This document shows positions 3,066 to 64,000 of a stretch of 64,000 bases of DNA, in pieces; the stretch's first letter is position 1; each line of letters opens with the position of its first letter. A program made the translations under genes and the position numbers. The notes under the pieces are model-generated. The model saw nothing but the letters and a program-made list of their open reading frames with translations. It was not told the DNA's origin and did no database searches. This DNA comes from an uncultured candidatus Brocadiaceae bacterium (GTDB taxonomy: Bacteria > Planctomycetota > Brocadiia > SM23-32): assembly GCA_964572825.1 (NCBI GenBank), contig CAZNGS010000009.1, positions 8,413 to 72,412 of the forward strand, given 5' to 3'.

Positions 3066-3079
3066 AAGGAGAGACCGAC

Positions 3080-4306
3080 ATGCCCGCAGAACAGGCAAGA
3101 AAGCCGAACATCGTGCTGGTGTATATGGACGACATGGGTTACGGCGACATGGGCTGCTTTGGCTCGTCGCTGATCAGGACCCCCGTGATGGACTCGATCG
3201 CCGGGCGGGGGGTGAAGTTCACCCGCATGTACGCCGCCGCCGCCATCTGCTCGCCCTCCCGGGCGGGACTCCTGACCGGCCGATACGCCCAGAGGCTGGA
3301 CGTCGAACGGGTGCTGTTCCCCGGCGACACAAAGGGAATTACGGATCAGGAGAAAACCTTCGGCGCCTACCTGCAGGATGCCGGCTACGCCACCTGCATG
3401 CTGGGCAAGTGGCACCTGGGCTGCCAGCCCCAGCACAATCCCGTGCGGCACGGGTTCGATCACTACTTCGGCCTGCTGTACAGCAACGATATGGACCCGC
3501 TGCACCTCTACCGGAACGAGGAGGCCATCGAGACCGAGGTGGACCAGGCCACGCTCACGCGCCGATATACGGACGAGGCCATCGGCTTCATCGAACAGCA
3601 CGCGGACGAGCCGTTCTGCGTTTACCTGGCCCACACCATGCCACACATCCCGCTGCACGTGGAACCCGATTTCCGGGGTCGCTCGGAGGGCGGCACCTAC
3701 GGCGACACCATCGAGTGCATCGACTACCACCTGGGCCGCCTGCTGGAGAAACTGGAGGAGCTAGGTCTGACCGAGGACACGCTGGTGACCGTCACCAGCG
3801 ACAACGGTCCCTGGTTCGAGGGCAGCACGGGCGGGCTGCGGGGCAGGAAGTTCGACAACTACGAGGGCGGCATCCGCATGCCCTTCGTGGCGCAGTGGCC
3901 GGGCACCATCCCCGCTGAGGCCGTCTGCGACGATCCCGCCAGCCAGATGGACATGCTGCCGACGTTCCTGTATCTGGCCGGCCTCACGCCCGACGGGCCG
4001 CAGCTGGACGGCATCAACATCTGGCCGGCCTTCGTGGGCGAGAGGTATCCTGAACGCGAGGCGCTCTACCACTACTTCAAGTACACGCTGACCGCCGTCA
4101 CCTGCGGCCGGTGGAAGCTGCACTTCTGCGACCGGGGGGGCAGCACCAAAGAGATGCCCCAGCTCTACAACATCGAGCGGGACCCGCAGGAGAATTACAA
4201 CCTGGCGAACCTGCAACCCGAGGTGGTCGAGCGCCTGAGCCGGCTGGCCGCGAAGTTCGACGAGGAGATCCAGGCCGCCCGCCCCGAGCAAGAGGGTGAC
4301 GAGTAG
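3080..4306 (+). CDS. sulfatase (formylglycine-dependent), no signal peptide
   Basis: The N-terminus MPAEQARKPNIVLVYMDDMGYGDMGCFG and the CSPSR active-site motif (AAICSPSRAGLLTGRY) are present. The ATG at 3080 has a GGAGAG RBS. The 622 aa ORF-track version is an upstream extension. Confidence 0.85.
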   Translation: MPAEQARKPNIVLVYMDDMGYGDMGCFGSSLIRTPVMDSIAGRGVKFTRMYAAAAICSPSRAGLLTGRYAQRLDVERVLFPGDTKGITDQEKTFGAYLQDAGYATCMLGKWHLGCQPQHNPVRHGFDHYFGLLYSNDMDPLHLYRNEEAIETEVDQATLTRRYTDEAIGFIEQHADEPFCVYLAHTMPHIPLHVEPDFRGRSEGGTYGDTIECIDYHLGRLLEKLEELGLTEDTLVTVTSDNGPWFEGSTGGLRGRKFDNYEGGIRMPFVAQWPGTIPAEAVCDDPASQMDMLPTFLYLAGLTPDGPQLDGINIWPAFVGERYPEREALYHYFKYTLTAVTCGRWKLHFCDRGGSTKEMPQLYNIERDPQENYNLANLQPEVVERLSRLAAKFDEEIQAARPEQEGDE

Positions 4307-31184: not shown

Positions 31185-31943
31185 TCAGGTGGTGAGAGCG
31201 TGCTCCCTGCCGCGCACGATGCAGCGCTCGCCCGTCCCCCGCGCCATCTGCCCGAAGGCATCCATTTGTTCCGGCCGGAACGGCATCACTTCGTGAAGCT
31301 CCGGGCTCAGGCAATCGTCGGGACGAAAGTTCTGCAACGCCACGGCCCGGGCCCCCTCCAGCTCCGGCAGGATGCCGCGCAGTTCGTCCTCCCCCACCAG
31401 GCCGGGGACGAGGGTGATGCGGAACTCGTGGGGCAGTCCGCTGTCGCGGATGAGGTTGATGGACCGCCGCACCGCGCCGATGTCCACTTCCGCGTCCGTC
31501 ACCCGCCGGTAGTCCGTCGGGTTCAGCGGCGCTTTGACGTCCATGGACATGACGTCCACGCAGTTTTCTTCGATCAGCTCTTCCACCACGTCCGGGCGGG
31601 TGCCGTTGGTTTCCACCATCACGTCCACGGAGAACTCGTGGAGCCTCTCCGTCAGGTCCACCAGTTCCCGGCCGTGCAGGGCCGGCTCGCCGCCCGTGAC
31701 GGCCACGGCGTCCACCCAGCCCCGCTGAGCGCGCAGATAGGCGGCGACCCGCTCGAACGGGACCGTCTCCATCTGCTCCGGGGCCAGCACCAGGTCCCCG
31801 GCGTGGCAGTAACGACAGCGCAGGTTGCAGTGCGGCAGGAAAAGGACCGAAGAGACCTTACCCTCCCATTCCAGCAGGCTGCTCTCGATGAATCCTTTGA
31901 TTTGCATTTTTCGTGCGCAGACCTGGCAGGCTCCCTCTTTCAT
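31185..31943 (-). CDS. nrdG: anaerobic ribonucleoside-triphosphate reductase activating protein (radical SAM); an alternative start is the ATG at 31907
   Basis: MQIKGFIESSLLEWEGKVSSVLFLPHCNLRCRYCH carries a CxxxCxxC radical-SAM motif. The ATG at 31943 overlaps the upstream stop as ATGA. The ATG at 31907 fits NrdG N-terminal alignments better. Confidence 0.7.
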   Translation of the reverse strand: MKEGACQVCARKMQIKGFIESSLLEWEGKVSSVLFLPHCNLRCRYCHAGDLVLAPEQMETVPFERVAAYLRAQRGWVDAVAVTGGEPALHGRELVDLTERLHEFSVDVMVETNGTRPDVVEELIEENCVDVMSMDVKAPLNPTDYRRVTDAEVDIGAVRRSINLIRDSGLPHEFRITLVPGLVGEDELRGILPELEGARAVALQNFRPDDCLSPELHEVMPFRPEQMDAFGQMARGTGERCIVRGREHALTT

Positions 31944-34900
31944 TCGACGCGGCCGGCAGGCGGGCCGTCACCGGCGGGACACAGCACGATGCTGGTCTGC
32001 ATCGGATAGCCGCAGATGCACCCTACGCTGCCCTCCGGCATCATCAGCAGGCCCCCGGCCGGCAGCATGGTGATCCAGCAGCCGGGCCGCGAGACCATGG
32101 TCAGGGCCACCTTGCGGTCGGCCACCGTATCGTATCCCTTGCAGACTTCTTCGCGGAAGAACAGGCAGCGCTCCGAGGCGCTGAAGGGCATGCAGCGCCG
32201 ACTGCCGCCGAAGTTGCGGTCGCTGACGTCCCTGCCGGTGGCGATCTCGCAAATGGGCACGTTCTCCGTGATCCAGGGGTTGTAATACAGCTTGCCGCCG
32301 ACGACCGCGGGATGCTGGATGCTGCCGTTGTGGTCCGTGGTGTTGGGGAGCACCTTCGCCTGGCTGTTCATGACCGTGTGCCACTTTTGCTGCCCGTTGG
32401 CCGGGTCCCAGGCGGATACGTCGTAAATGGCGATGTAGGGCTTCTCCGATTCATCCTCCAGGTACGTCGTGGTGCACAGGAGCGTCTCGTCGGCGTAGGT
32501 CAGGTAGAGGATGAACCGGGCCTTCTGCTCCAGCGGTTTCCGCCATTCCTCGCGGCCGCTCTCCAGAGCCACGGCCACCAGGTAGGCCTCCTTCTCGATA
32601 AAGTCCACCATGTCCACCCGGCCGTTTTCGGCATTCATGGCGGCGTCGCTGCGGCTCTCGACGAAGAAGACCTGCCGCCGGCCGACCGTGATGGATGGGT
32701 TCAGGATGGCGCCGCCCTCATATTCCCACAGACGCCGGAAGTCGGACTTGTCGATCGCGAAGAGGTTGTCACTGACGATGGGGCGGCTGCGCCCGCAGCG
32801 GGGTCCGTAGAGAAGGGGCTTTTTATTGGGAGCGTCGACGGTGTTGAAGGAGGCGCGGGGGTGCTGGTTGGTGCCGATCAGGTAGTCCCCCTGGGTGGCA
32901 ACGAGCCCCCAGTCGCGGTCAGAGCGCGGTCCCTTCAGCTTCCGTACGGTCCGTCCGTCGGCCAAGTCGAGAACCCGGCACTGGCTGCCCGAGGCCACAT
33001 AGAGGTGCCGGTCATCGACGCACATGGGGTTCGCATCGTGGCTGGCGATCAGCCGGGAGGAATCCGGCACTTCCTTCGTCCACAGGTAGGTGCCGTTGTA
33101 GGCATCCACGACGGTCAGGTAGTTCCGGCCCAGCACGAACAGCCGGCCGTCCCTGTAGAGGGGGGCGGCCGGGATGTGGTGGCGGTCCTGGTAGCGCTCC
33201 GGTCCCGGCGGGCCGAACCACTGGGTCATGAACTGGGTGCCGACCCGCGTGTCGCGGCTGTTGGATGTCTGCTGGGCGTCCGCGTACATGTGGGTCCACG
33301 ACCCCGCCCCGTCCAGCGGGCCGCGCGTCAGCGTGCCCCGGGCGCCGTCCCCCTCGGTGACGATCCGGAGCCCGGGCAGCCTCTCTCCCGCCCACTGCCG
33401 CAGGCGTCGCCCTCCGGACTCATCCGCCAGCACCAGCATGCCCCCGCAGGGCCTCAGCACCCGGAAAACCTGATGGGCCTCGTATGCATCCCAGCCTCCG
33501 GCGGACACGATCAGGTTCGCGGAGTAGCTGGGATACGGCAGCGGCCGGGATATCCGATGCACCACGACTCGTTTTCCGTAGAGTCCGGCGGCGTGGAGTC
33601 GCTCCCGGGCCCGCCGCGCCTCCGCGTCGTCCGGGACGGGGATAACCACCCGGAACTCCGAGTTCGCCGCCACCTCTGCCGCCAGTGAGGGGGCGTCCTG
33701 CCCCAGCACCATGCAGAATCCCTTGCGCATTCGGGTCTCCGCCAGGGCCCGGGCGGCCACCGAGTGCACGGGCGAGCGGAGCCGAACCGTTGCGGACCTC
33801 GAGGAGCCGGCCGACGGCGGCCCGTGGCCGAAGCAGTAGATCAGCCCCTTCGTGGTGCTCACGTAAAGCGAGCCCTCGGCGAAAGCCAGTTCGTGGGCCT
33901 CCCCCTCCACCTGCGTGCGCCACGTCTCCCGCCCCGTGTCGGCGTTGTATGCGGCCACGCAACCCTCCCCACCGGCGAAGAGGGTGGCGCCCGCGAGCAA
34001 AAGCGCCGAGGCGGGGGCCTTATCCACGCGCCACTTCTCGCCGTCCGCCAGGGCCCTGCCCACCGCCGGATGCTCCCGGATGCGGAGGCCGTCGGCCGTC
34101 TTTCCCAGGTAGTATTTCCGTTTGCTCTGGAGGGTCCTTTCCACGCGGGCAGACATGGTTTTTTCGAAGACCTGCCGCGGTACCGCGCAGAGATGGTATT
34201 GGAACCTTTCCCGCATGTATCGACCCCGCCCGTCCGTGATGCGCACCAGGTAGTAAGCATCCTTATCGGCCACCAGATGGCGACATGCTATCCCCACGGC
34301 GTCCGGCGCCGGCTCTCTGGTGAATCTGGGCTGTTTCTCGGGCTTCTCAACTTCGAGCCCGCGCACGCGCACGGTGGAGATTCCGTATTCACTGGGCCCG
34401 TAGACGACCATGTCGTGCATCGCTCTGGGATAGCCGCCGCCACCGGCGCGCTTGTAGGCCACATTCTTGCGCTCCAGGGCCTCTCCATCCGACCGGCGAA
34501 AGACCGCCGGAGCCGTGCGGCCGGTGGGCACCCAGAGGCATCTCTCGGTGGCCAGCACGTAGGATTCGGCCGGATAGGGGCTCTCCCTCTTCCAGTGGAG
34601 CCGACCCGTAGCGGCGTCAACGGCGAACAGATACACGCCCTGCACGGGGAACAGACCGGCGGCGAAATACACGGTGCCGTCATAGACGGTCACGCCGGTC
34701 CGCACGGGCCATTGCGACATCAGGCGCCCGTGGCCGATCACCAGTCGTCGGTCGGGAGCCGCGCTGAATTGCCAGAGCAGTTCACCGTCGCCGGCGTCCA
34801 GGCAATAGACCATGCCGTCGTCGGCACCGAAGTACACGTGCCCATCACCGACCGTGGGCGCCAGCCGGACCGCTCCATTGGCGTAGAAACGCCACCGCTC

Positions 34901-35248
34901 CGCTCCGGAGGCCGCGTCCAGGCAGATCAGGGCTTCCTCCGTGGAGGAGGCGTAATACAGGCGCCCGTCCGCCACGACGCAGGCATAGGCGAAGTCGTAG
35001 CTGACCGGCGGGAGGTAGCCCGGTCGCACGTGGGTGCCGTACCGGGCGGGTCGGGGTGCATGCGGCGCCCGATGCACCCAGAGCTGCCGCAGGGGGGGTT
35101 CCGGGCTTTCAGCGGTAGTGTGGTTCCGCGTCGGGCCGCCCCCGAAAGCGGGCCAGTCGCCAGCATCCGCAACGGAAGCAAGACACAACACTCCAGCGAA
35201 GAGAACTGTGATCGACAGTCTGGACGCTGAGTTTGCGCACTGCATCAT
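31940..35248 (-). CDS. large secreted PQQ-like beta-propeller repeat protein
   Basis: A signal peptide (MMQCANSASRLSITVLFAGVLCLASVADA) is followed by many G.VY.G..DG.LY.LD..TG...W repeats. GGAGAG sits 5 nt before the ATG at 35248. The product is about 1100 aa. Confidence 0.7.
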   Translation of the reverse strand: MMQCANSASRLSITVLFAGVLCLASVADAGDWPAFGGGPTRNHTTAESPEPPLRQLWVHRAPHAPRPARYGTHVRPGYLPPVSYDFAYACVVADGRLYYASSTEEALICLDAASGAERWRFYANGAVRLAPTVGDGHVYFGADDGMVYCLDAGDGELLWQFSAAPDRRLVIGHGRLMSQWPVRTGVTVYDGTVYFAAGLFPVQGVYLFAVDAATGRLHWKRESPYPAESYVLATERCLWVPTGRTAPAVFRRSDGEALERKNVAYKRAGGGGYPRAMHDMVVYGPSEYGISTVRVRGLEVEKPEKQPRFTREPAPDAVGIACRHLVADKDAYYLVRITDGRGRYMRERFQYHLCAVPRQVFEKTMSARVERTLQSKRKYYLGKTADGLRIREHPAVGRALADGEKWRVDKAPASALLLAGATLFAGGEGCVAAYNADTGRETWRTQVEGEAHELAFAEGSLYVSTTKGLIYCFGHGPPSAGSSRSATVRLRSPVHSVAARALAETRMRKGFCMVLGQDAPSLAAEVAANSEFRVVIPVPDDAEARRARERLHAAGLYGKRVVVHRISRPLPYPSYSANLIVSAGGWDAYEAHQVFRVLRPCGGMLVLADESGGRRLRQWAGERLPGLRIVTEGDGARGTLTRGPLDGAGSWTHMYADAQQTSNSRDTRVGTQFMTQWFGPPGPERYQDRHHIPAAPLYRDGRLFVLGRNYLTVVDAYNGTYLWTKEVPDSSRLIASHDANPMCVDDRHLYVASGSQCRVLDLADGRTVRKLKGPRSDRDWGLVATQGDYLIGTNQHPRASFNTVDAPNKKPLLYGPRCGRSRPIVSDNLFAIDKSDFRRLWEYEGGAILNPSITVGRRQVFFVESRSDAAMNAENGRVDMVDFIEKEAYLVAVALESGREEWRKPLEQKARFILYLTYADETLLCTTTYLEDESEKPYIAIYDVSAWDPANGQQKWHTVMNSQAKVLPNTTDHNGSIQHPAVVGGKLYYNPWITENVPICEIATGRDVSDRNFGGSRRCMPFSASERCLFFREEVCKGYDTVADRKVALTMVSRPGCWITMLPAGGLLMMPEGSVGCICGYPMQTSIVLCPAGDGPPAGRVE

Positions 35249-35465
35249 GCACTCTCCAATTCCTTTCAGGCACCCGCGCCGGCCGGACATTCAACTTCGA
35301 TCCGTCCAGTGTACCCGTTGCTGCGCGGCGGGCAACTGCCGGCCGCGGCGGCCCGAACGCGTCCCGAACACGCTGGCCGGCCAGTTCCTTGAGATTACTG
35401 CGTCGTCGACCCACGAGTCCGTCGCCGGCCACCAGAACATTACGTTCCGCAATTGTCCGTCCCTG

Positions 35466-51942: not shown

Positions 51943-52104
51943 CGCCGCGGGCCCGGACCATTGCAGCGAGCGTCTCCTGCGGCCCTATCAGTAAACCAGC
52001 ACAAAACCCGGGTCTACCGCGGGCGGCCGCGACCGGTCGCAATACAGTATGCGCAAAGACCGCGTTTCCACCCGAGGTTCGCCTTCCGCCTGGAGGGACG
52101 TGAA

Positions 52105-55100
52105 ATGAAGCGAGTGGCCCTGTTGACGGTGACGATCCTGGCAGTCTGTTCATCTGGCCCGTGGGGAGTGGACGCAGGGGCGGCCGAGTATTCCTGGCAG
52201 CGGCCGCACGCCCGGGTCCTTCCGAGGGGTGACCTGGAATGGGCGCCGCAGCCTTTCGAGTTCCAGGCCGGCGACGTGGTCCGCTGCATCGACTACGAGG
52301 GCGGCGACGACGCCAATCCCGGCACGAAGGCCCGGCCCTGGAAGCATCACCCCTGGGACCCCGCCGCCACCGGCCGGGCGGCCCGGGCCTCCGGCCCGAT
52401 CACCTACCTCTTCAAACGCGGTGTCATCTACCGGGGCAGGCTCCTCGCCGACGAATCCGGCGAGCCGGGCAACCCCGTCCGCCTGACCAGCGATCCCGAC
52501 TGGGGCGAGGGCGAGGCCGCGTTCTATGGCTCCAGGCGCATCGAGGACGGCTGGAGGCGCTGCACGTCCTCGGACGTCCCCGAGCACATGCCGGAGCCGG
52601 CGAAGGTGTGGTACAAAGACATCGGCACCGAGTGGCGCCCGTGGGCCCTGTGGGAGCTGCGGGACGGGCAGGTCACGCGCATCCCGATCGCCAGGGAGCC
52701 GAACTGGCAGATCAGCAATCCGGACGATCCCCAGAGCGAGTGGCACGAATGGACCGGCCGCATCAAGGGCGAGGGCTCCATCGACACGGTGCACCTGACC
52801 CAGAAGGACCCCCACTTTTTCGACGGCGGCTTCGTCTGGACCGAATGGAGCGGCAACATGGGCACCATCCACCTCGCCGCCATCCGGGGATACGATCCGG
52901 ACCGCCACCTGCTGAAGGCCGGCAACGGCAGCAAGGGCAACCGCTACTACATCGAGAACGTGCCGGGTTTTCTGGACTCCCCCGGCGAGTATTACCACGC
53001 CATGGACGGCCCCCACGCGGGCCGGCTCTACCTGCGCCTGCCGGACGACCGCAACCCCAATGGCGCCATTCTGGAGGGCAGCGCCGTCAAGGTGCCCATC
53101 ACCATCATCGACCGGGCAAACATCGAGATCAGCGGGCTGCGGTTCAGCTTCAACGACGTGGGAGACCCGGGCACGGGCTGGCCGCCCGCCACGCAGGCGC
53201 CGGCCGCCATTCGGGTGGCCGGCAACTGCCGCAACATCCGCGTCTCCCACTGCCGGTTCCTCCATGTGATGAGCGTGCTGACCGCCTACCCCCGCATGAA
53301 CGAGAAGTACACTCAAATCTACCTGCGCGACCTGCTGCCCTGGCGAGAGGACCTGGTGGAGAACATATCCATCACGGACTGCGACATCGCTTACGTTGAC
53401 CGCCCGGCGATACAGTTCCGCACCGGGCGCATGCTGGGGCGCATCGAATGGCCGCCCGTGGGCAAGCTGGGAAACGTCGCCGTGCTGCGCAACCGGCTCC
53501 ACCACGTAAGCAACCGACCGGGCGACAACATGTACAGCGCCATCCCCGCCATTTCGGTGCTCTTCCCCCGGGAGGCGGAGATCGCCGGCAACATCGTGGA
53601 CCGCTGCTGGGGCAGCGGCATCTTCGTTTTCGGCGGCAAGGCCAGCGGGGCCATCGGAGAGGCGCCCCTGACCCGCATCCTGATCCACCACAACAAGGCC
53701 ACCGATACCATGCTCGCCTGCAACGACTACGGGGGCATCGAATACTGGCAGGGCGGCCCCATCTACGCCTTCTGCAACATCTCCGGCAACTCCATCGGCT
53801 ACAAGAATTACATCGATATCAAGAACCACTGGAAGACCGTGGCCTACAACATGTACCTGGACGGGACCTTCAAGAGTTACACCTTTAACAACATCATCTG
53901 GGGCAAGAGCAACGATCTGGACTACCCTTACCGCAACCGCGGGGCCTACTTCGTGGTCCTGGGCTTCATGGACCACTTCTTCAACAATACCGCCTGCAGG
54001 TTTATGCACGGCATCGTGGGCTCGTCCGGCAACCGATCCAGCTTCCTGGGCAACGTGCTGGACGACATCAGCGTCTCCTTCATCCAGCAGAACCGGCCCG
54101 GCGACACCAGCCTGCGGGGAGGTGGAGACACCGGCGCGATGGGCCAGCGCGGCATGCCCACCAATGCCTACGGCTACAACATCTTCGTGGGCGACAGTGA
54201 ACGCGGCGTGGGCTCCGCGCGGGACGTGGGCGGCCCCACCGTCCAGGACTGGCGGGCCGACCTGGAAGAGCTTGGCGCCTTCTGCGCTCAGACCGGCTGG
54301 CGGACCGACCGAAGTCCGCTGCGCGACGGAGAGAACCACGATTTCGGCCTCGTGCCCGATTCCGCCGCGCAGGACCGCGGCGTGAAGTTCTTCGTGCCCT
54401 GGGCCCTTTACGGCATGGCCGGAGAGTGGAATTTCTACCTCCACCCCGCCGACCCCGCAGTGGTGCTCGGGGAAGGTTTCTACATGACCGAGGAATACGT
54501 CGAGAGGCACATGTACAGCAACATCCCCCGTATGAACCTGGAAGTGCCCGGCGCCACCGAGCAGGATTACGTCCGGGGCCCCCTGGAGGACTGGGTCAAG
54601 GGGGCCCTGCGCTTCAACGGCACCGACCGCTACGCCGTCCTCACCCACGAGGCCATCACGCAGGACCGCACCTACGGCCACGGTGTCCCCGAGGGCGAAG
54701 ACCGCATGAGCAGAGGCGAATTCCCCTTCGAGGGCGAGGAGCGCAAAAGCCTGGACATGGAGACCAATGACTTCCTGGTGGAGACCTGCTTCAGGACCGA
54801 ACCGGGCCACACCGGGGGGACGCTGGTCTCGAAAATGGGAGACGCCGGCTACCGGGTCTGCGTCAACGAGCGGGGCGGCACCACGCTGCTGATCCGGCAC
54901 GGGGAGGCCGTTGACCGGGCCGAGTGCGGCACGGCGGTCAACGACGGCCGGTGGCACCACGTGCTCGCCGAAGCCGACCGCGAAAACGCAGAGCTGAACA
55001 TCTACGTGGACGGCCGGCGCACGCGGCGGGCCCGGACCCACAACGTACCCCGCGGCGCATCGCTCGCCAACACGGCCGACTTCCTGGTGGGCAAAAGCCC

Positions 55101-55284
55101 GGAGGGCGACTACTTCGCCGGCGCGATGGACTTCCTGCGGGTCAGCCGCGGCACGCTGGCCGATGCCAACACCACGATCGAGGAGATCTACGCCTGGCAG
55201 TTCGACGGCCCGTTCCTGCGCGACTTCCGCGGCAACGAACCGCTCGGGAAACGCGATGCCGGGGCCATTGAGGGTGTGCAGTAG
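52105..55284 (+). CDS. secreted right-handed parallel beta-helix (pectate-lyase-fold) protein with a C-terminal LamG/concanavalin-A-like domain
   Basis: A signal peptide (MKRVALLTVTILAVCSSG) is followed by PbH1-type beta-helix repeats (NxxxxHH, NIxxNxI patterns). The C-terminal about 180 aa are jelly-roll like (GTAVNDGRWHHVLAE...LNIYVDG...ADFLVGK). GGAGGG precedes the ATG at 52105. Confidence 0.7.
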   Translation: MKRVALLTVTILAVCSSGPWGVDAGAAEYSWQRPHARVLPRGDLEWAPQPFEFQAGDVVRCIDYEGGDDANPGTKARPWKHHPWDPAATGRAARASGPITYLFKRGVIYRGRLLADESGEPGNPVRLTSDPDWGEGEAAFYGSRRIEDGWRRCTSSDVPEHMPEPAKVWYKDIGTEWRPWALWELRDGQVTRIPIAREPNWQISNPDDPQSEWHEWTGRIKGEGSIDTVHLTQKDPHFFDGGFVWTEWSGNMGTIHLAAIRGYDPDRHLLKAGNGSKGNRYYIENVPGFLDSPGEYYHAMDGPHAGRLYLRLPDDRNPNGAILEGSAVKVPITIIDRANIEISGLRFSFNDVGDPGTGWPPATQAPAAIRVAGNCRNIRVSHCRFLHVMSVLTAYPRMNEKYTQIYLRDLLPWREDLVENISITDCDIAYVDRPAIQFRTGRMLGRIEWPPVGKLGNVAVLRNRLHHVSNRPGDNMYSAIPAISVLFPREAEIAGNIVDRCWGSGIFVFGGKASGAIGEAPLTRILIHHNKATDTMLACNDYGGIEYWQGGPIYAFCNISGNSIGYKNYIDIKNHWKTVAYNMYLDGTFKSYTFNNIIWGKSNDLDYPYRNRGAYFVVLGFMDHFFNNTACRFMHGIVGSSGNRSSFLGNVLDDISVSFIQQNRPGDTSLRGGGDTGAMGQRGMPTNAYGYNIFVGDSERGVGSARDVGGPTVQDWRADLEELGAFCAQTGWRTDRSPLRDGENHDFGLVPDSAAQDRGVKFFVPWALYGMAGEWNFYLHPADPAVVLGEGFYMTEEYVERHMYSNIPRMNLEVPGATEQDYVRGPLEDWVKGALRFNGTDRYAVLTHEAITQDRTYGHGVPEGEDRMSRGEFPFEGEERKSLDMETNDFLVETCFRTEPGHTGGTLVSKMGDAGYRVCVNERGGTTLLIRHGEAVDRAECGTAVNDGRWHHVLAEADRENAELNIYVDGRRTRRARTHNVPRGASLANTADFLVGKSPEGDYFAGAMDFLRVSRGTLADANTTIEEIYAWQFDGPFLRDFRGNEPLGKRDAGAIEGVQ

Positions 55285-56402: not shown

Positions 56403-57638
56403 ATGGCGCAAGCAGTGTACAAAGACGTGCGGGTTCTGGATTTCACGCAGTACCAGCAGGGCCCGGTCGCCACTCAGATGCTGGGCGACTTTGGGGCCGA
56501 AGTCATCAAGATCGAACGTCCCGGGAGCGGTGACGGTTTCCGCGGCAGCAGCGCAACCGGCAGCCTCAACGCCGACCTGGAGGGCGGCTACAGCAAGGCG
56601 TTCATCGCCTGCAATCGGAACAAGAAGAGCATCACGGTCAACCTGAAGAGCGAAAAGGGCACGCAGATTGTCCACGAGTTGGTGAAACTCTCCGACGTGG
56701 TGGTTTCGAATTTCCGCCCCGGTGTGATGGAGCGCCTGGGGCTGGGATACGACGAACTGAGCCAGATCAACCCCGGGATCATCTGCGCCTACGGCACGGG
56801 CTACGGCCTGACCGGCCCCGACCGCGACACGCTGGGGCAGGACATGATGGCCCAGTGCCGCGGAGGTCTGGTCAGGGGCGATCCTCCCCGCAAGGTCGGG
56901 TTCAACGTCTGCGACCAGATGGGGGGCTTCCTGCTGGCGATGGGCGTCATGCTGGCGCTGGCTGCGCGTGAGAAGACGGGAAAGGGGCAGATAGTGGATT
57001 CAAATCTGCTCAACACCGCGGTTGTGGCCGACAGTCTGGCGGCCACCGTTTACCTCAACTCGGAGAATTATCCGCCCGAACCTGAAGAGAAGCAAGGGTC
57101 CGAACAGGACCATGAGCCGAACATGCCCAATCCGACCTACGCCCTCTACCAGGCGGCTGACGGCAGATGGGTGCACATCATTGACGCCTTCCGCGACGAG
57201 CCGCTCCGGCGCCAGTGCCGGGCGCTGGACATCCCCGAGGAGGTGGCCGACGATCCCCGTTTCCAGGATGTCCATAACCTCAGCCCGGAAGCCTACGAGG
57301 AACTGAAGGGCATCCTGGCCGAAGCAGTGGCGAAGTTCACGGCCGAACAGGTGGTCAAGCGGTTCGAAAAACAGGATATGATGGCGGTGCCGGTCAACAG
57401 CTACCGCGAAACCTTCCAGGACCCCCAGGTGCTGCACAACAACATGGTCATCGAGGCACAGCATCCGCGGGCCGGCAAGATGAACCTGGTCGGTTTCCCC
57501 ATCAAGCTTTCCGATACACCGGCCGAACTGCGTGACCCGCCACCCCTGCTGGGCGAGCACAACGAAGAGGTGCTCGGCGACCTGCTGGGAATGAGCGACG
57601 AGGAGATCGAGACACTCAGGGACGAAGGCGTCATCTGA
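56403..57638 (+). CDS. family III CoA-transferase (CaiB/BaiF/Frc family)
   Basis: VRVLDFTQYQQGPVATQMLGDFGAEVIKIERP and a GYGLTGP region are present. The product is about 411 aa. GGAGG precedes the ATG. Confidence 0.85.
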   Translation: MAQAVYKDVRVLDFTQYQQGPVATQMLGDFGAEVIKIERPGSGDGFRGSSATGSLNADLEGGYSKAFIACNRNKKSITVNLKSEKGTQIVHELVKLSDVVVSNFRPGVMERLGLGYDELSQINPGIICAYGTGYGLTGPDRDTLGQDMMAQCRGGLVRGDPPRKVGFNVCDQMGGFLLAMGVMLALAAREKTGKGQIVDSNLLNTAVVADSLAATVYLNSENYPPEPEEKQGSEQDHEPNMPNPTYALYQAADGRWVHIIDAFRDEPLRRQCRALDIPEEVADDPRFQDVHNLSPEAYEELKGILAEAVAKFTAEQVVKRFEKQDMMAVPVNSYRETFQDPQVLHNNMVIEAQHPRAGKMNLVGFPIKLSDTPAELRDPPPLLGEHNEEVLGDLLGMSDEEIETLRDEGVI

Positions 57639-57668
57639 AAAGGACCTTCATAGAGGGGAGAGATAGCG

Positions 57669-58193
57669 GTGAGCGACGAGGAAAGGCAGATCATTACCGA
57701 CGAGGCGCTGGAGAAGCTCCGCGTGGGCGAACTGATCGACACCTATCAGTTTACGGTGACGGACAAGTGGGTGAAGAAATACGCCATGACCATTGAGGAT
57801 CCCAATCCCCTGTGGTTCGAGGACGAGTACGCCGAGCGAGAGGGCCGGTTTGGCCGCCGGGTCGCTCCCGCCGCGTTCTGCGTGGCCATGAACCCCATGG
57901 AAGCCAAAGGCTGCTGTCCGGCCAGCGCTTTCTGGGCCGAGCTGTACGGGGTCCCCGACCACGGGCATCACTGGGGCGGGCTGGCCGCCTACAACGAGTT
58001 CGAGTACGAGAAGCCGATCTACGTCGGCGACACGATAACCTGCGAGGTGCGCAACCGGCGTGCCTACGAGAAGCAGGGCTCGGAGGCCGTGCTGGTCATC
58101 GCCGAGACCGAGTATAAGATGATAAACCAGGACGACGAGACCGTCGGGATCGGCGTCTACGGCAACCTGGTCCAGTTCGGCAACGAGGACTGA
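57669..58193 (+). CDS. MaoC-like (hotdog-fold) dehydratase, N-terminal-half type subunit
   Basis: At 174 aa it resembles the N-terminal non-catalytic hotdog half of split MaoC / mesaconyl-CoA-type hydratases. GTG start with GGGGAG. Confidence 0.55.
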   Translation: MSDEERQIITDEALEKLRVGELIDTYQFTVTDKWVKKYAMTIEDPNPLWFEDEYAEREGRFGRRVAPAAFCVAMNPMEAKGCCPASAFWAELYGVPDHGHHWGGLAAYNEFEYEKPIYVGDTITCEVRNRRAYEKQGSEAVLVIAETEYKMINQDDETVGIGVYGNLVQFGNED

Positions 58194-58247
58194 GCACCGG
58201 CCGAGCCAGGGGATGCTCCTCCAGATCACCGCGAGGGAGAATACACG

Positions 58248-58733
58248 ATGTCTACTGCGCAGCTTTACTACGAAGACGTGAGCGTCGGCGACAACGTCCG
58301 TCCGCTCTACTTCTACATGGACCAGATGCAGCTCATCAAATGGGGCGAGGTCACCGGCAACAGCGACGCGGGCCACTGGCACATCTGGCACAACCGGCAC
58401 AAGGAGGTCTCCACCACCGAAACCGAGCGCAGCGGCCACGACCCCTCCGTGACCGGCCAGTTCAAAACGGCCCTGATGGAAAAGATGCTGATGGACTGGG
58501 CCGGCTCGCGCGCCTGGGTCAAGAAGATGTCCGTCCAGTACCGCGTCTGGGACCACTTCTTCGAACTGAAGACCTTTACCGGCACCGTCACCGGCAAGCG
58601 GCAGCAGGACGGCGAGAACCTGGTCGACCTGGAGGTCCAGATGGCCCGCGAGGACGGCCGCAGGACCACCAGGGGCACCGCGACGATCGCCCTGCCGTCC
58701 GCCTCGAAAAAGGAACCGGAGAGCAGCGAATGA
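58248..58733 (+). CDS. MaoC-like (hotdog-fold) enoyl-CoA hydratase/dehydratase subunit
   Basis: At 161 aa it is a hotdog fold. It pairs with the preceding gene. Its stop overlaps the next ATG as ATGA. Confidence 0.55.
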   Translation: MSTAQLYYEDVSVGDNVRPLYFYMDQMQLIKWGEVTGNSDAGHWHIWHNRHKEVSTTETERSGHDPSVTGQFKTALMEKMLMDWAGSRAWVKKMSVQYRVWDHFFELKTFTGTVTGKRQQDGENLVDLEVQMAREDGRRTTRGTATIALPSASKKEPESSE

Positions 58734-60868
58734 AAAGGCTCCTGGCGGCCGCCGCGCTGGTCATCCTGGTGAGTTCCTGCGCAAGCGTCGGTCCGGCTCC
58801 GCCGGGCTGCCACATGGCCGCTTCACACACCGTTGTCGCCGGCCAACCCGCCGAACTCGGAATCCGCGGAAAGGCCGCGCATCTGGAGATCGAGCAGACG
58901 CTCGAGCCCGGCGGACCGGTCGAGCAATGGAAGGCGGACAACCAGAAGGCGCGGGAAAACGGCGAGCGTTTCCCGGACAAGCTGACCGTGGCCAGGCTGG
59001 CCGTGAGCTATGCCGACGGCCGGGGTGTGGAAGCCGATATCCGCTACAACGAAAGCGTCGGCGCGCTCCGGCGGGAGTGGTGGAACCCCGTCGACGGTTT
59101 CATCCATCACCTCGCCTTCGCGCAGGTGGCCTGGACGCGCCCGATCGGGGAGAGCGGCCTCCGGCACAACGTGGTCTACCGGATGAGATGGGCCAATCCG
59201 CGCCCCGAGGTGGCCATCAGGTCGATTGAGGTGAAGCCGGCAGAGGGTCTGGGCGAGGGGAGACTCCTGATCTTCGATGCAGCCACCGGGTCCACGCCGT
59301 CCGCGGGCGCAACTTACTTCGTGGCGCCCGACGGCGACGATTCCGCCCCCGGCACTTTCGATCGACCGTGGACAACCCTCCACAAGGCCGCCGAAACCAT
59401 CCAGTCGGGCGATACGGTGTACGTCCGCGGGGGTACCTACCGGCCGACCGAGCGGATACTCTTCAAGTACATCGACGCGCCTGAGGGGCAGCGCACCCGC
59501 ATCATCGGCTACCCCGGCGAGACCGCGACCTTCGACTTCATGGACGCTCACTGGGACACCAGCCCGGAACGCCGGCAGTACGGCTTCGAGCCGTATCCCC
59601 ACGATCAATCCATGATCATGGCCTATGACTGCGACCGTTTTACGTTCAAGAACCTGCATCTGACCCGCTCGCGGGCGCGCGGGTTCGGCATGGAGACCGG
59701 CTGGTGGAAGTGGGCTCACCGGGACAACCTGATCGACGGCGGCAGGCCGGAGGTGGTCAATAACACCCCGTTCCAGGATTCCGAAATCTGCTACTGTTCG
59801 ACGTACATGACCTACAACGCGGGGATCCGGTTCCGCGGCGCCCGTAAGGGCAGACTGATAGGCAACGTCCTCATGCGCCCCGAGACGATCGCCATGGGCC
59901 CCGCGGATCCGAAGAATCCCGGCTCCGGCCCCGTGGCGGGGCTGGACGCCACCACGTTCTACTCGCGGAGCGGCAACAAGAAGCGCAACCCCCCCATGGA
60001 GGGAATCGACGGGGGAGGCTTCCACGACGTGGAGGTCGCCTACAACGAGATATGCTGGGGCGACAAGGAGTGCTTTCTTATCGACGGGGACGTGGACGGC
60101 CTGCGCGTGCACCACAATTACGTGCACGATGCCTGGAACCTGCCCTGGGTCGGCGGCATCTCCCCCAACGGCTACGGCCGGCAGGAGGACATCAAGATCG
60201 ACCACAACATCGCCCACCACGTGGGCACAGGCTTCGGCATAGGCACGGAAGGCGGCGGCTGGGGCAAACGGGTCCGCATTCACCACAACCTCGCCTATGA
60301 CTGCCACTGGTCCGGCGTGGGGGTCAGCGGCGCGTGGAAGAGTAACGCAAGCCTTTATGACATCTCGGTCTACAACAACACGCTGTTTCACAACGGCCAC
60401 TACACCCGCAATCCCCGTATCCGGTGGCGCGAGAACAGGGGGCCGGCTGGGGGCATCTCGGTCAGCTTCCCTGCCGAAGACCTGGAGGGGGTTGTGGAGG
60501 ACGTCGTGGTCGCCAACAACCTGATTCTGCGACCCCGGGACTACGCCCTGACCCTCAACGGGGAGGGCGATCCGGAGGAAAGCAACATCGTCTTCACCCA
60601 CAACGTGACCGACCTGGAGGCCGAAAGCGACATCTTCGACCTCGAGCGCAACAGTGGCTGGCACCCGGTTCGAGACGACGGCCTCCTGGTGGTCGAAAGG
60701 CCGCTCCTCCGGGACCCGCGGGACCGGGACTTCCGCCTCGTGCCCTCCACCCCGGCCACAGACGCCGGCATCGCCATCAATCCCCGGGGCAAACCCGACC
60801 CGGAGGGCGGGAAGACCTGCGTCGGCGCCTTCGGGCCGGACTCGAAATGGGTGGAGCTGGACCCGTGA
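58730..60868 (+). CDS. beta-helix (pectate-lyase-fold) lipoprotein with an N-terminal uncharacterised domain
   Basis: A signal peptide with a lipobox (LVILVSSC) is present. An N-terminal domain ends in RWANPRPEVAIRSIEV. Then come FVAPDGDDSAPGTFDRPWTTLHKAAETIQSGDTVYVRGGTY and multiple HHN/NN beta-helix rungs. GGAGAG RBS. Confidence 0.7.
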   Translation: MKRLLAAAALVILVSSCASVGPAPPGCHMAASHTVVAGQPAELGIRGKAAHLEIEQTLEPGGPVEQWKADNQKARENGERFPDKLTVARLAVSYADGRGVEADIRYNESVGALRREWWNPVDGFIHHLAFAQVAWTRPIGESGLRHNVVYRMRWANPRPEVAIRSIEVKPAEGLGEGRLLIFDAATGSTPSAGATYFVAPDGDDSAPGTFDRPWTTLHKAAETIQSGDTVYVRGGTYRPTERILFKYIDAPEGQRTRIIGYPGETATFDFMDAHWDTSPERRQYGFEPYPHDQSMIMAYDCDRFTFKNLHLTRSRARGFGMETGWWKWAHRDNLIDGGRPEVVNNTPFQDSEICYCSTYMTYNAGIRFRGARKGRLIGNVLMRPETIAMGPADPKNPGSGPVAGLDATTFYSRSGNKKRNPPMEGIDGGGFHDVEVAYNEICWGDKECFLIDGDVDGLRVHHNYVHDAWNLPWVGGISPNGYGRQEDIKIDHNIAHHVGTGFGIGTEGGGWGKRVRIHHNLAYDCHWSGVGVSGAWKSNASLYDISVYNNTLFHNGHYTRNPRIRWRENRGPAGGISVSFPAEDLEGVVEDVVVANNLILRPRDYALTLNGEGDPEESNIVFTHNVTDLEAESDIFDLERNSGWHPVRDDGLLVVERPLLRDPRDRDFRLVPSTPATDAGIAINPRGKPDPEGGKTCVGAFGPDSKWVELDP

Positions 60869-61086
60869 CAGCCTTGGCGCAGGGGGTGAAGACCGCCGGA
60901 AGAACGCATCCGGTGAAACTACTGGCCGTCTGGGGGCACTGAGGGCCTCCCGGCCCCTTTGCCGTTCCTCGCCACAAGCGTTACGCGCTGACGGTTGGAC
61001 ACGCCTGTCCGCAGTTGACATAAGGCGAGTCTGGGATTACACCCGCGTATGAACCTTGCTACGCTTTCCGGGATGTGCGAGCAATC

Positions 61087-63909
61087 ATGCCACAAGTCTC
61101 GACGGTAACGCTGTGCGCGCTGGTCGGAATCCTCTGGCTCTTGCTGATGCCGTGCAGTGCCCGCGCCGCGACAGGCGGGAGCCCGATCTCCGTTCCGGGA
61201 GTACACTTGAACGCCACACGGCGGGCGGAGGACGGTCCCGTATGGTTCCGGCGCGAGGGAGTAGATTATAACCTGTCCGATTTCCCCCCAGGGGACGTTG
61301 AACTCGACGGCTTAGAATGGCATGTTTCCGAACGCGGCGTGCTGATGCTCGCGGGGGCAGGCTCCCCGGTCCACCAATCCGATGTCAAAGGCATACCGGT
61401 GGGGCGGAAGGCCGACTCGCTGCATTTCCTGCACACCTTCAACCCCGGCCCCGCGCTGGAGTGGTGGAAAATCAGACTGGCGGTCGAGAAGGAGAAGTTG
61501 AGCAAACCGCCCGCTCCGCCCGTCCTGTTCCGCTACGTGGTGCACTACGAGGACGGGCAGAGCGTCCCGGCGAAGGTCCGCTGGAACGAGGGCATCGGCG
61601 ACTGGTTGCGGGTCGGCCCCATCCCGGAGATGGGCTGGGCGCGTCCGGCCTGGACGAAGAAAGTCGAGGAGCCCCGCGGCGGGCGGCTGGCGGTCTACGC
61701 CATGCACTGGCCCAACCCCCGGCCGGAGGAGACGATCGCCTCGATCGACGTGGTGACCAGCAATGACGTTTACCGGGACTACGGTGCCCCCGCCGTGCTG
61801 GGGATAACCGCCGAGACCGGTTCCCTGCGGGGCCGGCGCCGCTACGTCTCCAGGGACGGGCGGGATTCCAACCCCGGAACGTTCCAGAAGCCCTGGCGGA
61901 CGCTCCATAAGGCGACCGAGGCCCTGGAGCCGGGCGACAGCGCCTACGTCCGCGGCGGCTACTACGGACCCACCGAGCAGATTCTGGTGACCCGGTCCGG
62001 CGAGGAAGACGCCTGGATCACCTACTCCGGCTATCCGGGCGAGACCGCCGTGCTGGACGCCTGCCACCACCTGCCGCCGGCCGACTACGAGGGGCCGCCC
62101 AACTGGAGCGACTGGGGCTTCTTTCAACTCAAGAAGGTGCACCACGTGCGGGTGCAGAACCTCACCATCCAGCGCTCCCGCCGGCAGGGGCTGAACATCT
62201 TCGAATCCAACCACGTCGAGGTGCTCTACAACACTTTCTACAAAACCGCCGAGTGCGGCATGCGCACCTACGCCCACTGGTGGCGGGCTCGCGGCCTGGA
62301 ATGGTCGCATCACGTGCGCATCTACGGCAACAACCTGGCCCGCGTGCACGATAAGACCATGCATCGGAACGAACACGATGCGGTCGTTCCCCGGCCGACC
62401 ACCGGCCACGAGGGCATCACCATCGCATGGACCGACGGATTCGAGATCGGCTTCAACGAGATCTACGGCTGCGGCAAGGAGGCGATCGACTGCAAGAACG
62501 CCAACCGCAACGGCCGCATTCACCACAACTACCTGCACGACGGCACCGCCACGGGCATCTACCTGGATGGATGGGGCCAGGACATCGAGAACATGGAGAT
62601 ATTCGAGAACACCCTCCACAATCTCGGCGGCATCTCCATCAGCAGCGAGCAGTCGGGCGGCACGCTGAGCACTATCCACGTGCACCACAACCTCCTGTGG
62701 GACATCCTCGTGAGCGGCATCTCCGTCAACAGCCACTACGCCAGGGAGAAGAGCCCCAAGCGCGAAGTGCTGGTCGAGCACAACACCGTGCACCGGGCCG
62801 GCTATCCCTCCGCCCGGTGGGGGTGGTGGGGCGCCGGCATCAGCCTGACGGGCGGCGCGCTGGAGGACGTCACCGTCCGGGACAACACCGTCACGGACAA
62901 CGTGGGCGCCCAGATAGCTCTGGACCCCGACGCCCGCGAGTCCGGAGGGGTGCAGGTGGTCAACAATCTGTCCCACCCCATGGTCGGTGAGCGCCCCGGC
63001 CAGCGCGACAGGCGTCGCGGTGTGGCCGGTGAAGACCCCGTGCTGAAACCGCCCCGCTACGTCGACCCGGAAGACGGTGACTTCCGACTGCGGCCGGGCT
63101 CCCCCGCGCGGGGCGCCGCCACGGACGGCACTGACCTGGGCGCACTGCACGAGGATTCCGGCGTCCTCCACTGGCAGAGCCTGGCGCGGGTGGACCAGGA
63201 CTTCGGCGATCCCGCCCTGGCAACAGCGACCGGTCAGCAGCCGGTCGACATACCCGGCCGGCTGCTGAACACCCGGGTTCATCGGCTCGGGTGGCAGAAC
63301 GCCCTCTACAACTTCAGCCTGCACTACAACTACGACTTGCTGCCCCTGCCGGTGGGCGAAACTGCGCTGAGCGGGGTCCGGTGGTTCCTGCCCGACCACG
63401 CCGACACCGGCGCCCCCACCCTGATCACCCTGAAGGGCTTCGGCTCGCAGGCGGAGGAGACCGCGGTTCGGGGCATCCCCGTGGGGCAGCGGGCGGACGC
63501 ATTGTTTTTCCTGCATGCCTTCAACCGCGGACCGGCCGCGCGAGAGTGGGAGCGAAAGGACGAGGGAGCCGCCTCGGCGCCCACGGTGTTCCACTACATC
63601 GTTCATTACGGGGACGGAGCGTCTGCGAAGATTCCGGTGAAATACAGGGTCAACATCGACCAGTGGCTGCGCAAACGCCCGGAGGACGGCCTGCTGCCGG
63701 GTCTGCCGGGGGCGCAGGTGGCGTGGGACCGGCAGGTCTGGCATCGCTGGGGCCACCGCGGGCATGAGTCCATCCGCATTTACCGGATGAGCTGGGAGAA
63801 CCCTCACCCGGAGAAAACGATCGAATCCCTGGACGTTGTGAGCGCCAACGACGAGGAACACGACTGGGGCTCGCCAGCCGTGCTGGGTATCACCACCGGC
63901 AGACAGTGA
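61087..63909 (+). CDS. secreted beta-helix protein, paralog of 58730..60868, with the uncharacterised domain duplicated at its N- and C-termini
   Basis: A signal peptide (MPQVSTVTLCALVGILWLLLMPCSARAA) is present. GIPVGRKADSLHFLHTFNPGPA...HWPNPRPEETIASIDVV lies at the N-terminus. The same module (GIPVGQRADALFFLHAFNRGPA...WENPHPEKTIESLDVV) repeats at the C-terminus. The central region (YVSRDGRDSNPGTFQKPWRTLHKATEALEPGDSAYVRGGYY plus beta-helix rungs) is homologous to 58730..60868. Confidence 0.7.
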   Translation: MPQVSTVTLCALVGILWLLLMPCSARAATGGSPISVPGVHLNATRRAEDGPVWFRREGVDYNLSDFPPGDVELDGLEWHVSERGVLMLAGAGSPVHQSDVKGIPVGRKADSLHFLHTFNPGPALEWWKIRLAVEKEKLSKPPAPPVLFRYVVHYEDGQSVPAKVRWNEGIGDWLRVGPIPEMGWARPAWTKKVEEPRGGRLAVYAMHWPNPRPEETIASIDVVTSNDVYRDYGAPAVLGITAETGSLRGRRRYVSRDGRDSNPGTFQKPWRTLHKATEALEPGDSAYVRGGYYGPTEQILVTRSGEEDAWITYSGYPGETAVLDACHHLPPADYEGPPNWSDWGFFQLKKVHHVRVQNLTIQRSRRQGLNIFESNHVEVLYNTFYKTAECGMRTYAHWWRARGLEWSHHVRIYGNNLARVHDKTMHRNEHDAVVPRPTTGHEGITIAWTDGFEIGFNEIYGCGKEAIDCKNANRNGRIHHNYLHDGTATGIYLDGWGQDIENMEIFENTLHNLGGISISSEQSGGTLSTIHVHHNLLWDILVSGISVNSHYAREKSPKREVLVEHNTVHRAGYPSARWGWWGAGISLTGGALEDVTVRDNTVTDNVGAQIALDPDARESGGVQVVNNLSHPMVGERPGQRDRRRGVAGEDPVLKPPRYVDPEDGDFRLRPGSPARGAATDGTDLGALHEDSGVLHWQSLARVDQDFGDPALATATGQQPVDIPGRLLNTRVHRLGWQNALYNFSLHYNYDLLPLPVGETALSGVRWFLPDHADTGAPTLITLKGFGSQAEETAVRGIPVGQRADALFFLHAFNRGPAAREWERKDEGAASAPTVFHYIVHYGDGASAKIPVKYRVNIDQWLRKRPEDGLLPGLPGAQVAWDRQVWHRWGHRGHESIRIYRMSWENPHPEKTIESLDVVSANDEEHDWGSPAVLGITTGRQ

Positions 63910-64000
63910 GGCGAGGACTCGATCACAACATGAGCACACAAAGGGACGCCCGTGTCAGGTAGAATCAGTTCACCCATCGTCTTTTTGGCCGTCTCCGTTT

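What the first reader, a model, noticed from the sequence alone, without database searches (positions are those of the whole stretch)
58730..63909. Uncharacterised roughly 200-aa domain present three times (once in one beta-helix protein, duplicated at both ends of its paralog)
The module starts GIPVG(R/Q)(K/R)AD(S/A)L(H/F)FLH(T/A)FN(P/R)GPA. It continues through a VHYEDGQSVPAKVRWNEGIGDW-like segment and ends W(A/P/E)NP(R/H)PE(V/E/K)(A/T)I(R/A/E)S(I/L)(E/D)VV.

It occurs at the N-terminus of the 58730..60868 product, in its VAR...YADGRGVEADIRYNESVG...RWANPRPEVAIRSIEV variant. It also occurs at both the N-terminus (residues about 80-250) and the C-terminus (about 760-940) of the 61087..63909 product, where it brackets the beta-helix core.

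The copies are diverged at the DNA level, so this is an ancient domain duplication and not a recent repeat. I do not recognise the domain. It may be a carbohydrate-binding or cell-surface anchoring module specific to this lineage.
Basis: seen in the sequence. Interest (0 to 1): 0.5.

Follow-up and report, generated by a model that had tools for sequence, protein, structure and literature searches.

The report
Undescribed PVC-wide beta-sandwich domain
The repeated segment is a real beta-sandwich domain of about 215 residues that no protein-family or structure database describes; it is common in secreted and membrane-anchored proteins of Planctomycetes and Verrucomicrobia, and here it flanks a polysaccharide-acting beta-helix enzyme, probably as a binding module.

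Summary
ProtB (61087-63909) carries two full copies of a module of about 215-225 aa, at residues ~31-245 and ~715-940. They share 36% identity over 227 aa (E 2e-42). ProtA (58730-60868) carries only a shortened, degenerate copy at residues ~36-188.

The module is not specific to this lineage. A profile search finds 6,243 cluster representatives (4,072 at E <= 1e-10). Of 80 genomic loci, 70 carry PVC taxon labels. The module usually sits at the extreme C-terminus. It occurs alone behind a signal peptide, or fused to ECF sigma factors, FecR, BlaR1, Ser/Thr kinases, TPR/WD40, redoxins or beta-helix enzymes.

Best reading: a non-catalytic extracytoplasmic ligand-binding (probably glycan-binding) module. 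The function is inferred, not shown.

The parts
61087..63909 (+). ProtB gene (940 aa; an alternative GTG start lies at 61075): signal peptide, N-terminal module, right-handed beta-helix core, C-terminal module
   Evidence: ORF and translation. Pfam Beta_helix 5e-20, plus NosD and Pel9A-like. An ortholog of 74-75% identity occurs in a related MAG and an ENA contig.
61177..61821 (+). Full module copy BN (ProtB residues ~31-245)
   Evidence: Profile domain E 3.6e-65. 36% identity to BC over 227 aa. AF2 model pLDDT 86.3, pTM 0.85, a beta-sandwich with one helix.
61822..63156 (+). Right-handed parallel beta-helix core of ProtB (residues ~246-690)
63229..63906 (+). Full module copy BC (ProtB residues ~715-940); it ends at the protein's C-terminus
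   Evidence: Profile domain E 3.2e-67. Pairwise alignment with BN.
58730..60868 (+). ProtA gene (712 aa): lipoprotein-type signal (VSSC lipobox, Cys17), shortened module, beta-helix core, no C-terminal module
   Evidence: Translation. Pfam Pel9A-like and Beta_helix. 29% identity to ProtB over 648 aa, E 3e-56.
58835..59293 (+). Partial, degenerate module copy in ProtA (residues ~36-188; the profile-confirmed core is residues 73-169, window 58946-59236)
   Evidence: The profile matches only positions 114-206 of 226, E 3.7e-14. Alignment with other N copies shows the missing first strands and the decayed GIPVG/LHFLH motif. No remnant lies upstream in any frame.

Best explanation
The module is one member of a large, unnamed family of extracytoplasmic beta-sandwich (jelly-roll) domains of about 200-225 aa, found mainly in the PVC superphylum.

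In ProtB, two anciently duplicated copies bracket a polysaccharide-acting right-handed beta-helix. ProtA keeps only a shortened N-terminal copy.

The most likely role is non-catalytic ligand binding, probably of a glycan or cell-envelope polymer. On the beta-helix enzymes it would hold or target the polymeric substrate, as a CBM does. On membrane-anchored ECF sigma factors, FecR, BlaR1 and Ser/Thr kinases, the same fold would serve as the outward-facing sensor.

Shown here: the existence of the domain, its boundaries, its fold class, its family size, its partner domains and its conserved architecture. Inferred: that it binds a ligand, and that the ligand is a carbohydrate.
For: - **Real three-fold homology.**
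- **Confident model.** AF2 gives a beta-sandwich at pLDDT 86.
- **Conserved architecture.** The module/beta-helix/module layout recurs in at least 10 diverged proteins: P0019, P0031, P0045, P0046, P0059, P0080, P0088, P0108, P0120 and P0161.
- **Sugar-related locus.** A LamG beta-helix protein lies next to sugar regulators, GH1 (window) and GH94 (relative). The LamG protein is 83% identical between the two.
- **Extracytoplasmic setting.** Family members carry signal peptides, or the module follows a transmembrane segment.
- **Partner domains.** These include sigma-70 r2/r4, FecR, BlaR1 M56, redoxin, DUF1559, CBM48, TPR and WD40.
Against: - No binding has been measured, and no member of the family is characterised.
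- The family-wide conserved residues include many His, Asp, Arg and Asn (LHFLH, HY.DG, DVRDWW, W.NP.P, ID). That is more conservation than most CBM families show.
- The only close structural neighbour, AziU2, is a subunit of an enzyme complex and not a lectin.
- Foldseek against the PDB gives nothing significant.
- Among the members sampled, most are not attached to carbohydrate-active enzymes.
- I had no model coordinates, so I could not check whether the conserved residues form a surface site.
Confidence: 0.5

Rival explanations
1. The module is a protein-protein interaction, oligomerisation or envelope-anchoring domain. It would dock diverse periplasmic or secreted proteins onto a common PVC cell-envelope partner and would not bind free ligand.
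For: - It sits at the extreme C-terminus in 121 of 149 representatives.
- It is attached to functionally unrelated proteins, including redoxins, DUF1559 proteins, enzymes, kinases and sigma factors.
- The core motifs are strongly conserved across the family. That fits one common partner better than many different ligands.
Against: - It also occurs N-terminally, internally and in 2-3 tandem or TPR-spaced copies.
- It occurs as a stand-alone secreted protein, which is odd for an anchor.
- No partner has been identified, and the contexts of stand-alone genes are not informative.
Confidence: 0.22
2. The module is a small-molecule-binding or catalytic domain distantly related to AziU2, the accessory subunit of the AziU3/U2 aziridine-forming enzyme. 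Its conserved His, Asp and Tyr residues would form a pocket.
For: - Conserved polar residues include H102, H105, H134, Y135, D137, D150, R152, D153, N193 and D204, in profile numbering.
Against: - Two different profiles give no sequence-level link to any PDB chain at E <= 10.
- AziU2 is a cytoplasmic actinobacterial biosynthetic protein that works with a papain-like partner (PMC12865890). These modules are secreted, and I saw no such partner.
- In the ProtB copies several family-consensus polar positions are replaced: H to F, D to G/N, R to G/D, N to K/H. A shared active site is therefore not kept.
Confidence: 0.13
3. In ProtA and ProtB the modules are purely structural caps or folding aids for the ends of the beta-helix, with no binding role of their own.
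For: - The modules sit directly on both ends of the helix.
- The N copies form their own subfamily with an inserted helix (PGPA.E.WK...KRKL..PP).
- The ProtA copy tolerates loss of its strands and motif.
Against: - The same domain is common without any beta-helix, alone or on signalling proteins.
- ProtA functions without a C-terminal copy.
- A linker of about 25 residues with low pLDDT separates the core from BC.
Confidence: 0.1

Closest known systems
CAZy carbohydrate-binding modules with a beta-jelly-roll fold (for example CBM6, CBM29, CBM32, CBM36, CBM86, and the C-terminal domain of GH85 enzymes)
   Different: No sequence or profile match to any CBM model in Pfam. About 100 extra residues. 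Motifs strongly conserved across the whole family. Among the members sampled, most are on sensors or stand alone and not on CAZymes. Binding is untested.
AziU2 (PDB 7wuw chain A), subunit of the AziU3/U2 aziridine-forming complex of Streptomyces sahachiroi
   Different: No detectable sequence relationship. It is a cytoplasmic secondary-metabolite enzyme subunit that pairs with a papain-like protein. The window modules are extracytoplasmic, duplicated and fused to a beta-helix.
Right-handed beta-helix polysaccharide lyases, epimerases and hydrolases (AlgE4 A-module, RbmB, PL9 Pel9A and BT4170, PL6, GH28): the partner domain, not the module
   Different: Only 10-18% identity. No family-level assignment or catalytic residues were established. 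None of these solved enzymes carries the flanking module.

Membership tests
Any Pfam-A or NCBIfam family (including CBM and Ig-like families) | The sequence scores above threshold against the family HMM | tested here: not met
   No hit over the module in ProtA or ProtB at E <= 1. None in 20 + 24 family members at E <= 10 or 1. Among 80 multidomain members, no Pfam family is shared by more than 8.
Beta-jelly-roll CBM (generic kind) | Beta-sandwich jelly-roll fold | tested here: met
Beta-jelly-roll CBM (generic kind) | Demonstrated carbohydrate binding through a defined aromatic/polar site | not testable with these tools
   No coordinates were available to map conserved residues, and no biochemical data exist.
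Beta-jelly-roll CBM (generic kind) | Appended to a carbohydrate-active catalytic domain | tested here: inconclusive
   True for ProtA, ProtB and about 10 relatives with a beta-helix core. Among the members sampled, most are on sigma factors, kinases, redoxins or TPR/WD40 proteins, or stand alone.
AziU2/Vzb11-like proteins | Shared fold with AziU2 | tested here: met
AziU2/Vzb11-like proteins | Detectable sequence homology, and pairing with a papain-like AziU3-type partner in a biosynthetic cluster | tested here: not met
   The PDB profile searches do not recover 7wuw at E <= 10. The window neighbours are an AraC regulator, a CoA-transferase, MaoC-like proteins and beta-helix proteins.
C-terminal sorting domains (for example the T9SS CTD) | A short (~70-100 aa) domain found only at the extreme C-terminus of cargo proteins | tested here: not met
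   The module is about 200-225 aa. It also occurs N-terminally, internally and in 2-3 copies.
Recent tandem or DNA-level repeat | High nucleotide identity between the copies | tested here: not met
   Only two patches of 78-100 nt at 70-74% identity.

The most novel reading that the evidence does not exclude
This may be the main, still unnamed extracytoplasmic sensor domain of PVC bacteria. It would be a fold so far solved only in AziU2, reused on ECF sigma factors, FecR, BlaR1, Ser/Thr kinases and giant ATPase-WD40-TPR proteins. It would detect a common class of environmental or envelope ligand through the conserved His/Asp/Trp site. The copies on the beta-helix enzymes would be a derived, partly degenerate offshoot.
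Probability: 0.25. Interest if true: 0.65.

Novelty: new variant of a known kind. Interest (0 to 1): 0.45.

Why it matters
Planctomycetes and Verrucomicrobia have large, poorly annotated secreted proteomes and signalling proteomes. This family has at least 4,000 robust 50%-identity clusters and belongs to no curated family. It is attached to many sigma factors, kinases and polysaccharide-type enzymes. Naming it and finding its ligand would annotate thousands of 'hypothetical' regions at once. It would also indicate what these bacteria sense and what their beta-helix enzymes degrade. For this window alone, the result is a well-delimited new domain, not a new mechanism.

Tried and rejected
**Searches that found nothing**
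- The AlphaFold-database fold search (afdb50) was not available. AFDB neighbours and their UniProt names could not be checked.
- Foldseek against the PDB gave nothing at E < 0.03.
- Sequence-profile searches of the PDB with two alignments gave only chance-level hits: IFT122 at E 0.49 and IgA1 protease at E 0.45.
- Literature searches for the domain found no description, neither under ECF C-terminal extensions nor under PVC-specific domains. Papers mentioning AziU2 gave only its pairing with a papain-like subunit.
- The gene neighbourhoods of two stand-alone members showed no recurring partner.

**Ideas rejected**
- Low-complexity similarity: the alignment spans more than 200 aa.
- A recent repeat: the DNA has diverged.
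- A mis-called start or frameshift to explain the short ProtA copy: no upstream remnant exists in any frame, and a lipoprotein signal sits at 58730.
- A sorting-signal domain: the size and the positions are wrong.
- Membership of an Ig-like family: there are no such fold or profile hits.

**Not done**
- A second word-index homolog search, because source names and precomputed Pfam fields were already empty for every hit.

Full report
**Observation**

The window encodes two paralogous secreted proteins.
- ProtA (58730-60868, 712 aa) has a lipoprotein-type signal with Cys17.
- ProtB (61087-63909, 940 aa) has a signal peptide.

They are 29% identical over 648 aa (E 3e-56). Both contain a right-handed beta-helix (Pfam Beta_helix, NosD and Pel9A-like).

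ProtB residues 31-250 and 691-940 align over 227 positions at 36% identity, E 2e-42. The ProtA N-terminus matches both ProtB copies, at E 7e-19 and 7e-13. A family profile run over all six reading frames of the window finds exactly these three sites and no others. The repeat is therefore real and is not a low-complexity artefact.

Between the two ProtB copies only two short DNA patches of 70-74% identity remain.

**Corrections to the finding**

The full module begins about 50 residues before GIPVG. It spans ProtB ~31-245 (window 61177-61821) and ~715-940 (63229-63906).

The ProtA copy is partial.
- The profile covers only positions 114-206 of 226.
- Alignment with other N-terminal copies shows about 150 aa (residues ~36-188, window 58835-59293).
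- These lack the first two or three strands, and the motif has decayed to LGIRGKAAHLEIEQ.
- No remnant lies upstream in any frame. This is a genuine shortening and not a mis-called start.

**What the module is**

No Pfam-A or NCBIfam model matches the module in ProtA or ProtB. None matches 20 close or 24 diverse family members. Among 80 multidomain members, no Pfam family is shared by more than eight. Profile searches of all PDB sequences give only chance-level hits.

AlphaFold2 with a 20-sequence alignment gives a confident model: pLDDT 86.3 and pTM 0.85. It has eleven strands of three or more residues plus one helix.

- the GH85 C-terminal domain;
- CBM8, CBM29, CBM86, CBM36, CBM6 and CBM32;
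- Cry toxin domain III.

Foldseek finds nothing significant. The fold is thus an elaborated beta-jelly-roll. Its core resembles CBMs, and its full topology has one solved counterpart.

**Family size and spread**

The word-index search found only 18 relatives. Most are stand-alone proteins of about 226 aa with signal peptides, and all lack Pfam domains.

The exhaustive profile search found 6,243 50%-identity representatives at E <= 1e-3, 4,072 at E <= 1e-10 and 1,116 at E <= 1e-30. The profile includes signal-peptide columns, so the weakest hits may include some noise.

A scan of species-representative genomes confirmed 127 loci. I counted the taxon labels of the 80 loci listed:

| Label | Loci |
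|---|---|
| Verrucomicrobiota | 40 |
| Planctomycetota | 26 |
| Lentisphaerota | 3 |
| Omnitrophota | 1 |
| Other (Armatimonadota, Bacteroidota-labelled MAGs and others) | 10 |

MAG labels may be unreliable.

Among the 149 best representatives:
- 121 have the module within 20 residues of the C-terminus;
- 100 have one copy, 43 have two and 6 have three;
- 47 are 300 aa or shorter.

Partner domains include sigma-70 r2/r4, FecR, BlaR1 M56, redoxin/AhpC-TSA, DUF1559, CBM48, TPR, WD40 and beta-helix. Ser/Thr kinase and ATPase N-termini were read directly from the sequences. In these proteins the module follows a signal peptide or a transmembrane segment, which implies an extracytoplasmic location. 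That is an inference from sequence.

The family signature, derived from 191 non-redundant copies, is:

`DL..N..L..LP.G.Q..GV.F..G.IQL...P..V.GI.VG....LHFLH...G..IG.Y.VHY.DG...IPI.YG.DVRDWW...VAW.G.N...RLY..W.NP.P...I.SID..S...APF.VAIT.E`

**Context in ProtB and the locus**

A full-length model of ProtB (pLDDT 79, pTM 0.71) places the two sandwiches at either end of the beta-helix. A low-confidence linker lies at residues 694-714.

The module/beta-helix/module layout recurs in at least ten diverged proteins. N copies are closer to other N copies (38%) than to C copies (29%). The duplication therefore predates the radiation of this enzyme family.

In a related metagenome contig the locus runs as follows:
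1. a LamG beta-helix protein, 83% identical to the window's 1107-aa protein;
2. a LacI-type regulator;
3. a 941-aa module/beta-helix/module protein;
4. a methyltransferase-PQQ protein;
5. the ProtB ortholog (75% identity);
6. an aldo-keto reductase;
7. GH94.

The window has GH1, the LamG protein, an AraC regulator, a CoA-transferase, two MaoC-like genes, ProtA and ProtB. ProtA has no close ortholog in the relative.

**Mechanism**

The best-supported reading (confidence about 0.5) is a non-catalytic, extracytoplasmic ligand-binding module, probably for a glycan or envelope polymer. It would act as a CBM-like substrate holder on the beta-helix enzymes and as a sensor domain on signalling proteins. 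This rests on fold class, partner domains, location and locus content. No binding has been shown.

The rivals are:
- an envelope-anchoring or protein-interaction domain (0.22);
- an AziU2-like small-molecule or catalytic pocket (0.13);
- a purely structural cap for the helix (0.10).

Two facts keep the second and third readings alive. One is the high conservation of His, Asp, Arg and Asn residues across the family. The other is the AziU2 match. However, the ProtB copies replace several of those consensus residues.

**Novelty and verdict**

The domain is a genuine, large family that I found described nowhere. It is not in the 2025 Pfam-A copy, NCBIfam 20.0 or the PDB, and the searched literature does not describe it. 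Its general kind, a beta-sandwich accessory or sensor module, is familiar, so I rate it a new variant of a known kind.

From memory, and not checked here: the AziU3/U2 structure paper described that complex as having a new overall fold. If that is right, this family's fold is rarely sampled in the PDB.

Noticed in passing
window 52105-55284 (+), within ORF 51961-55284: A protein of about 1060 aa with a signal peptide and a C-terminal LamG/Laminin_G_3 domain (E 1.5e-12). It is 83% identical to the first gene of the syntenic locus in a related metagenome contig. It therefore belongs to the same conserved locus as ProtB. It does not carry the module.
   Followed up: partly
L083 (ENA contig NODE_479, 65 kb) and L001 (MAG CAYVBE010000019.1): The relative has two full module/beta-helix/module paralogs (941/923 aa and 925 aa), separated by a methyltransferase-PQQ propeller protein of about 1000 aa. 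It has no ProtA ortholog and no CoA-transferase/MaoC insert. The window's arrangement is a rearranged version of this locus.
   Followed up: partly
window 56403-58733 (+): A family III CoA-transferase and two MaoC/FAS1-dehydratase-like genes lie between the AraC regulator and ProtA. The last of them overlaps the ProtA start by 4 nt (58730-58733). This is an acyl-CoA metabolism cassette apparently unrelated to the glycan genes around it.
   Followed up: no
family members P0060, P0073, P0091, P0086, P0072 (not in the window): Single polypeptides combine ECF sigma-70 regions 2 and 4 (or FecR, or BlaR1 M56), a transmembrane segment and this module at the C-terminus. This suggests one-protein transmembrane signalling devices in PVC bacteria with the module as the outside part.
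   Followed up: partly
family members P0023, P0029, P0041 (about 2650-2680 aa): Giant proteins have an N-terminal P-loop ATPase, a transmembrane segment, long WD40 arrays and three module copies spaced by TPR regions. A similar ATPase-plus-module protein sits in tandem with a paralogous ATPase-TPR protein in L027.
   Followed up: no
window 58823-61021 (-) and 61312-63939 (-): Very long antisense ORFs (732 and 875 aa) lie opposite ProtA and ProtB. They are the usual artefact of 66% G+C DNA. Homologs and Pfam hits support the + strand genes only.
   Followed up: partly
profile positions 87-120 vs PDB 7uvl_P, 6xjb_A (IgA1 protease, residues ~498-540): A weak, non-significant match (E 0.45-1) links the 'G..IG.Y.LHY.DG...I.I.Y..D' strand pair to a segment of streptococcal IgA1 proteases. 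It is probably chance but could be checked by structure superposition.
   Followed up: no
window 2438-4306 (+), 31940-35290 (-): A sulfatase and a protein of about 1100 aa with PQQ/BamB-like beta-propeller repeats lie elsewhere in the window. They fit a polysaccharide-degrading PVC-type genome. The organism itself was not identified; the nearest relative carries a Brocadiaceae MAG label of doubtful reliability.
   Followed up: no
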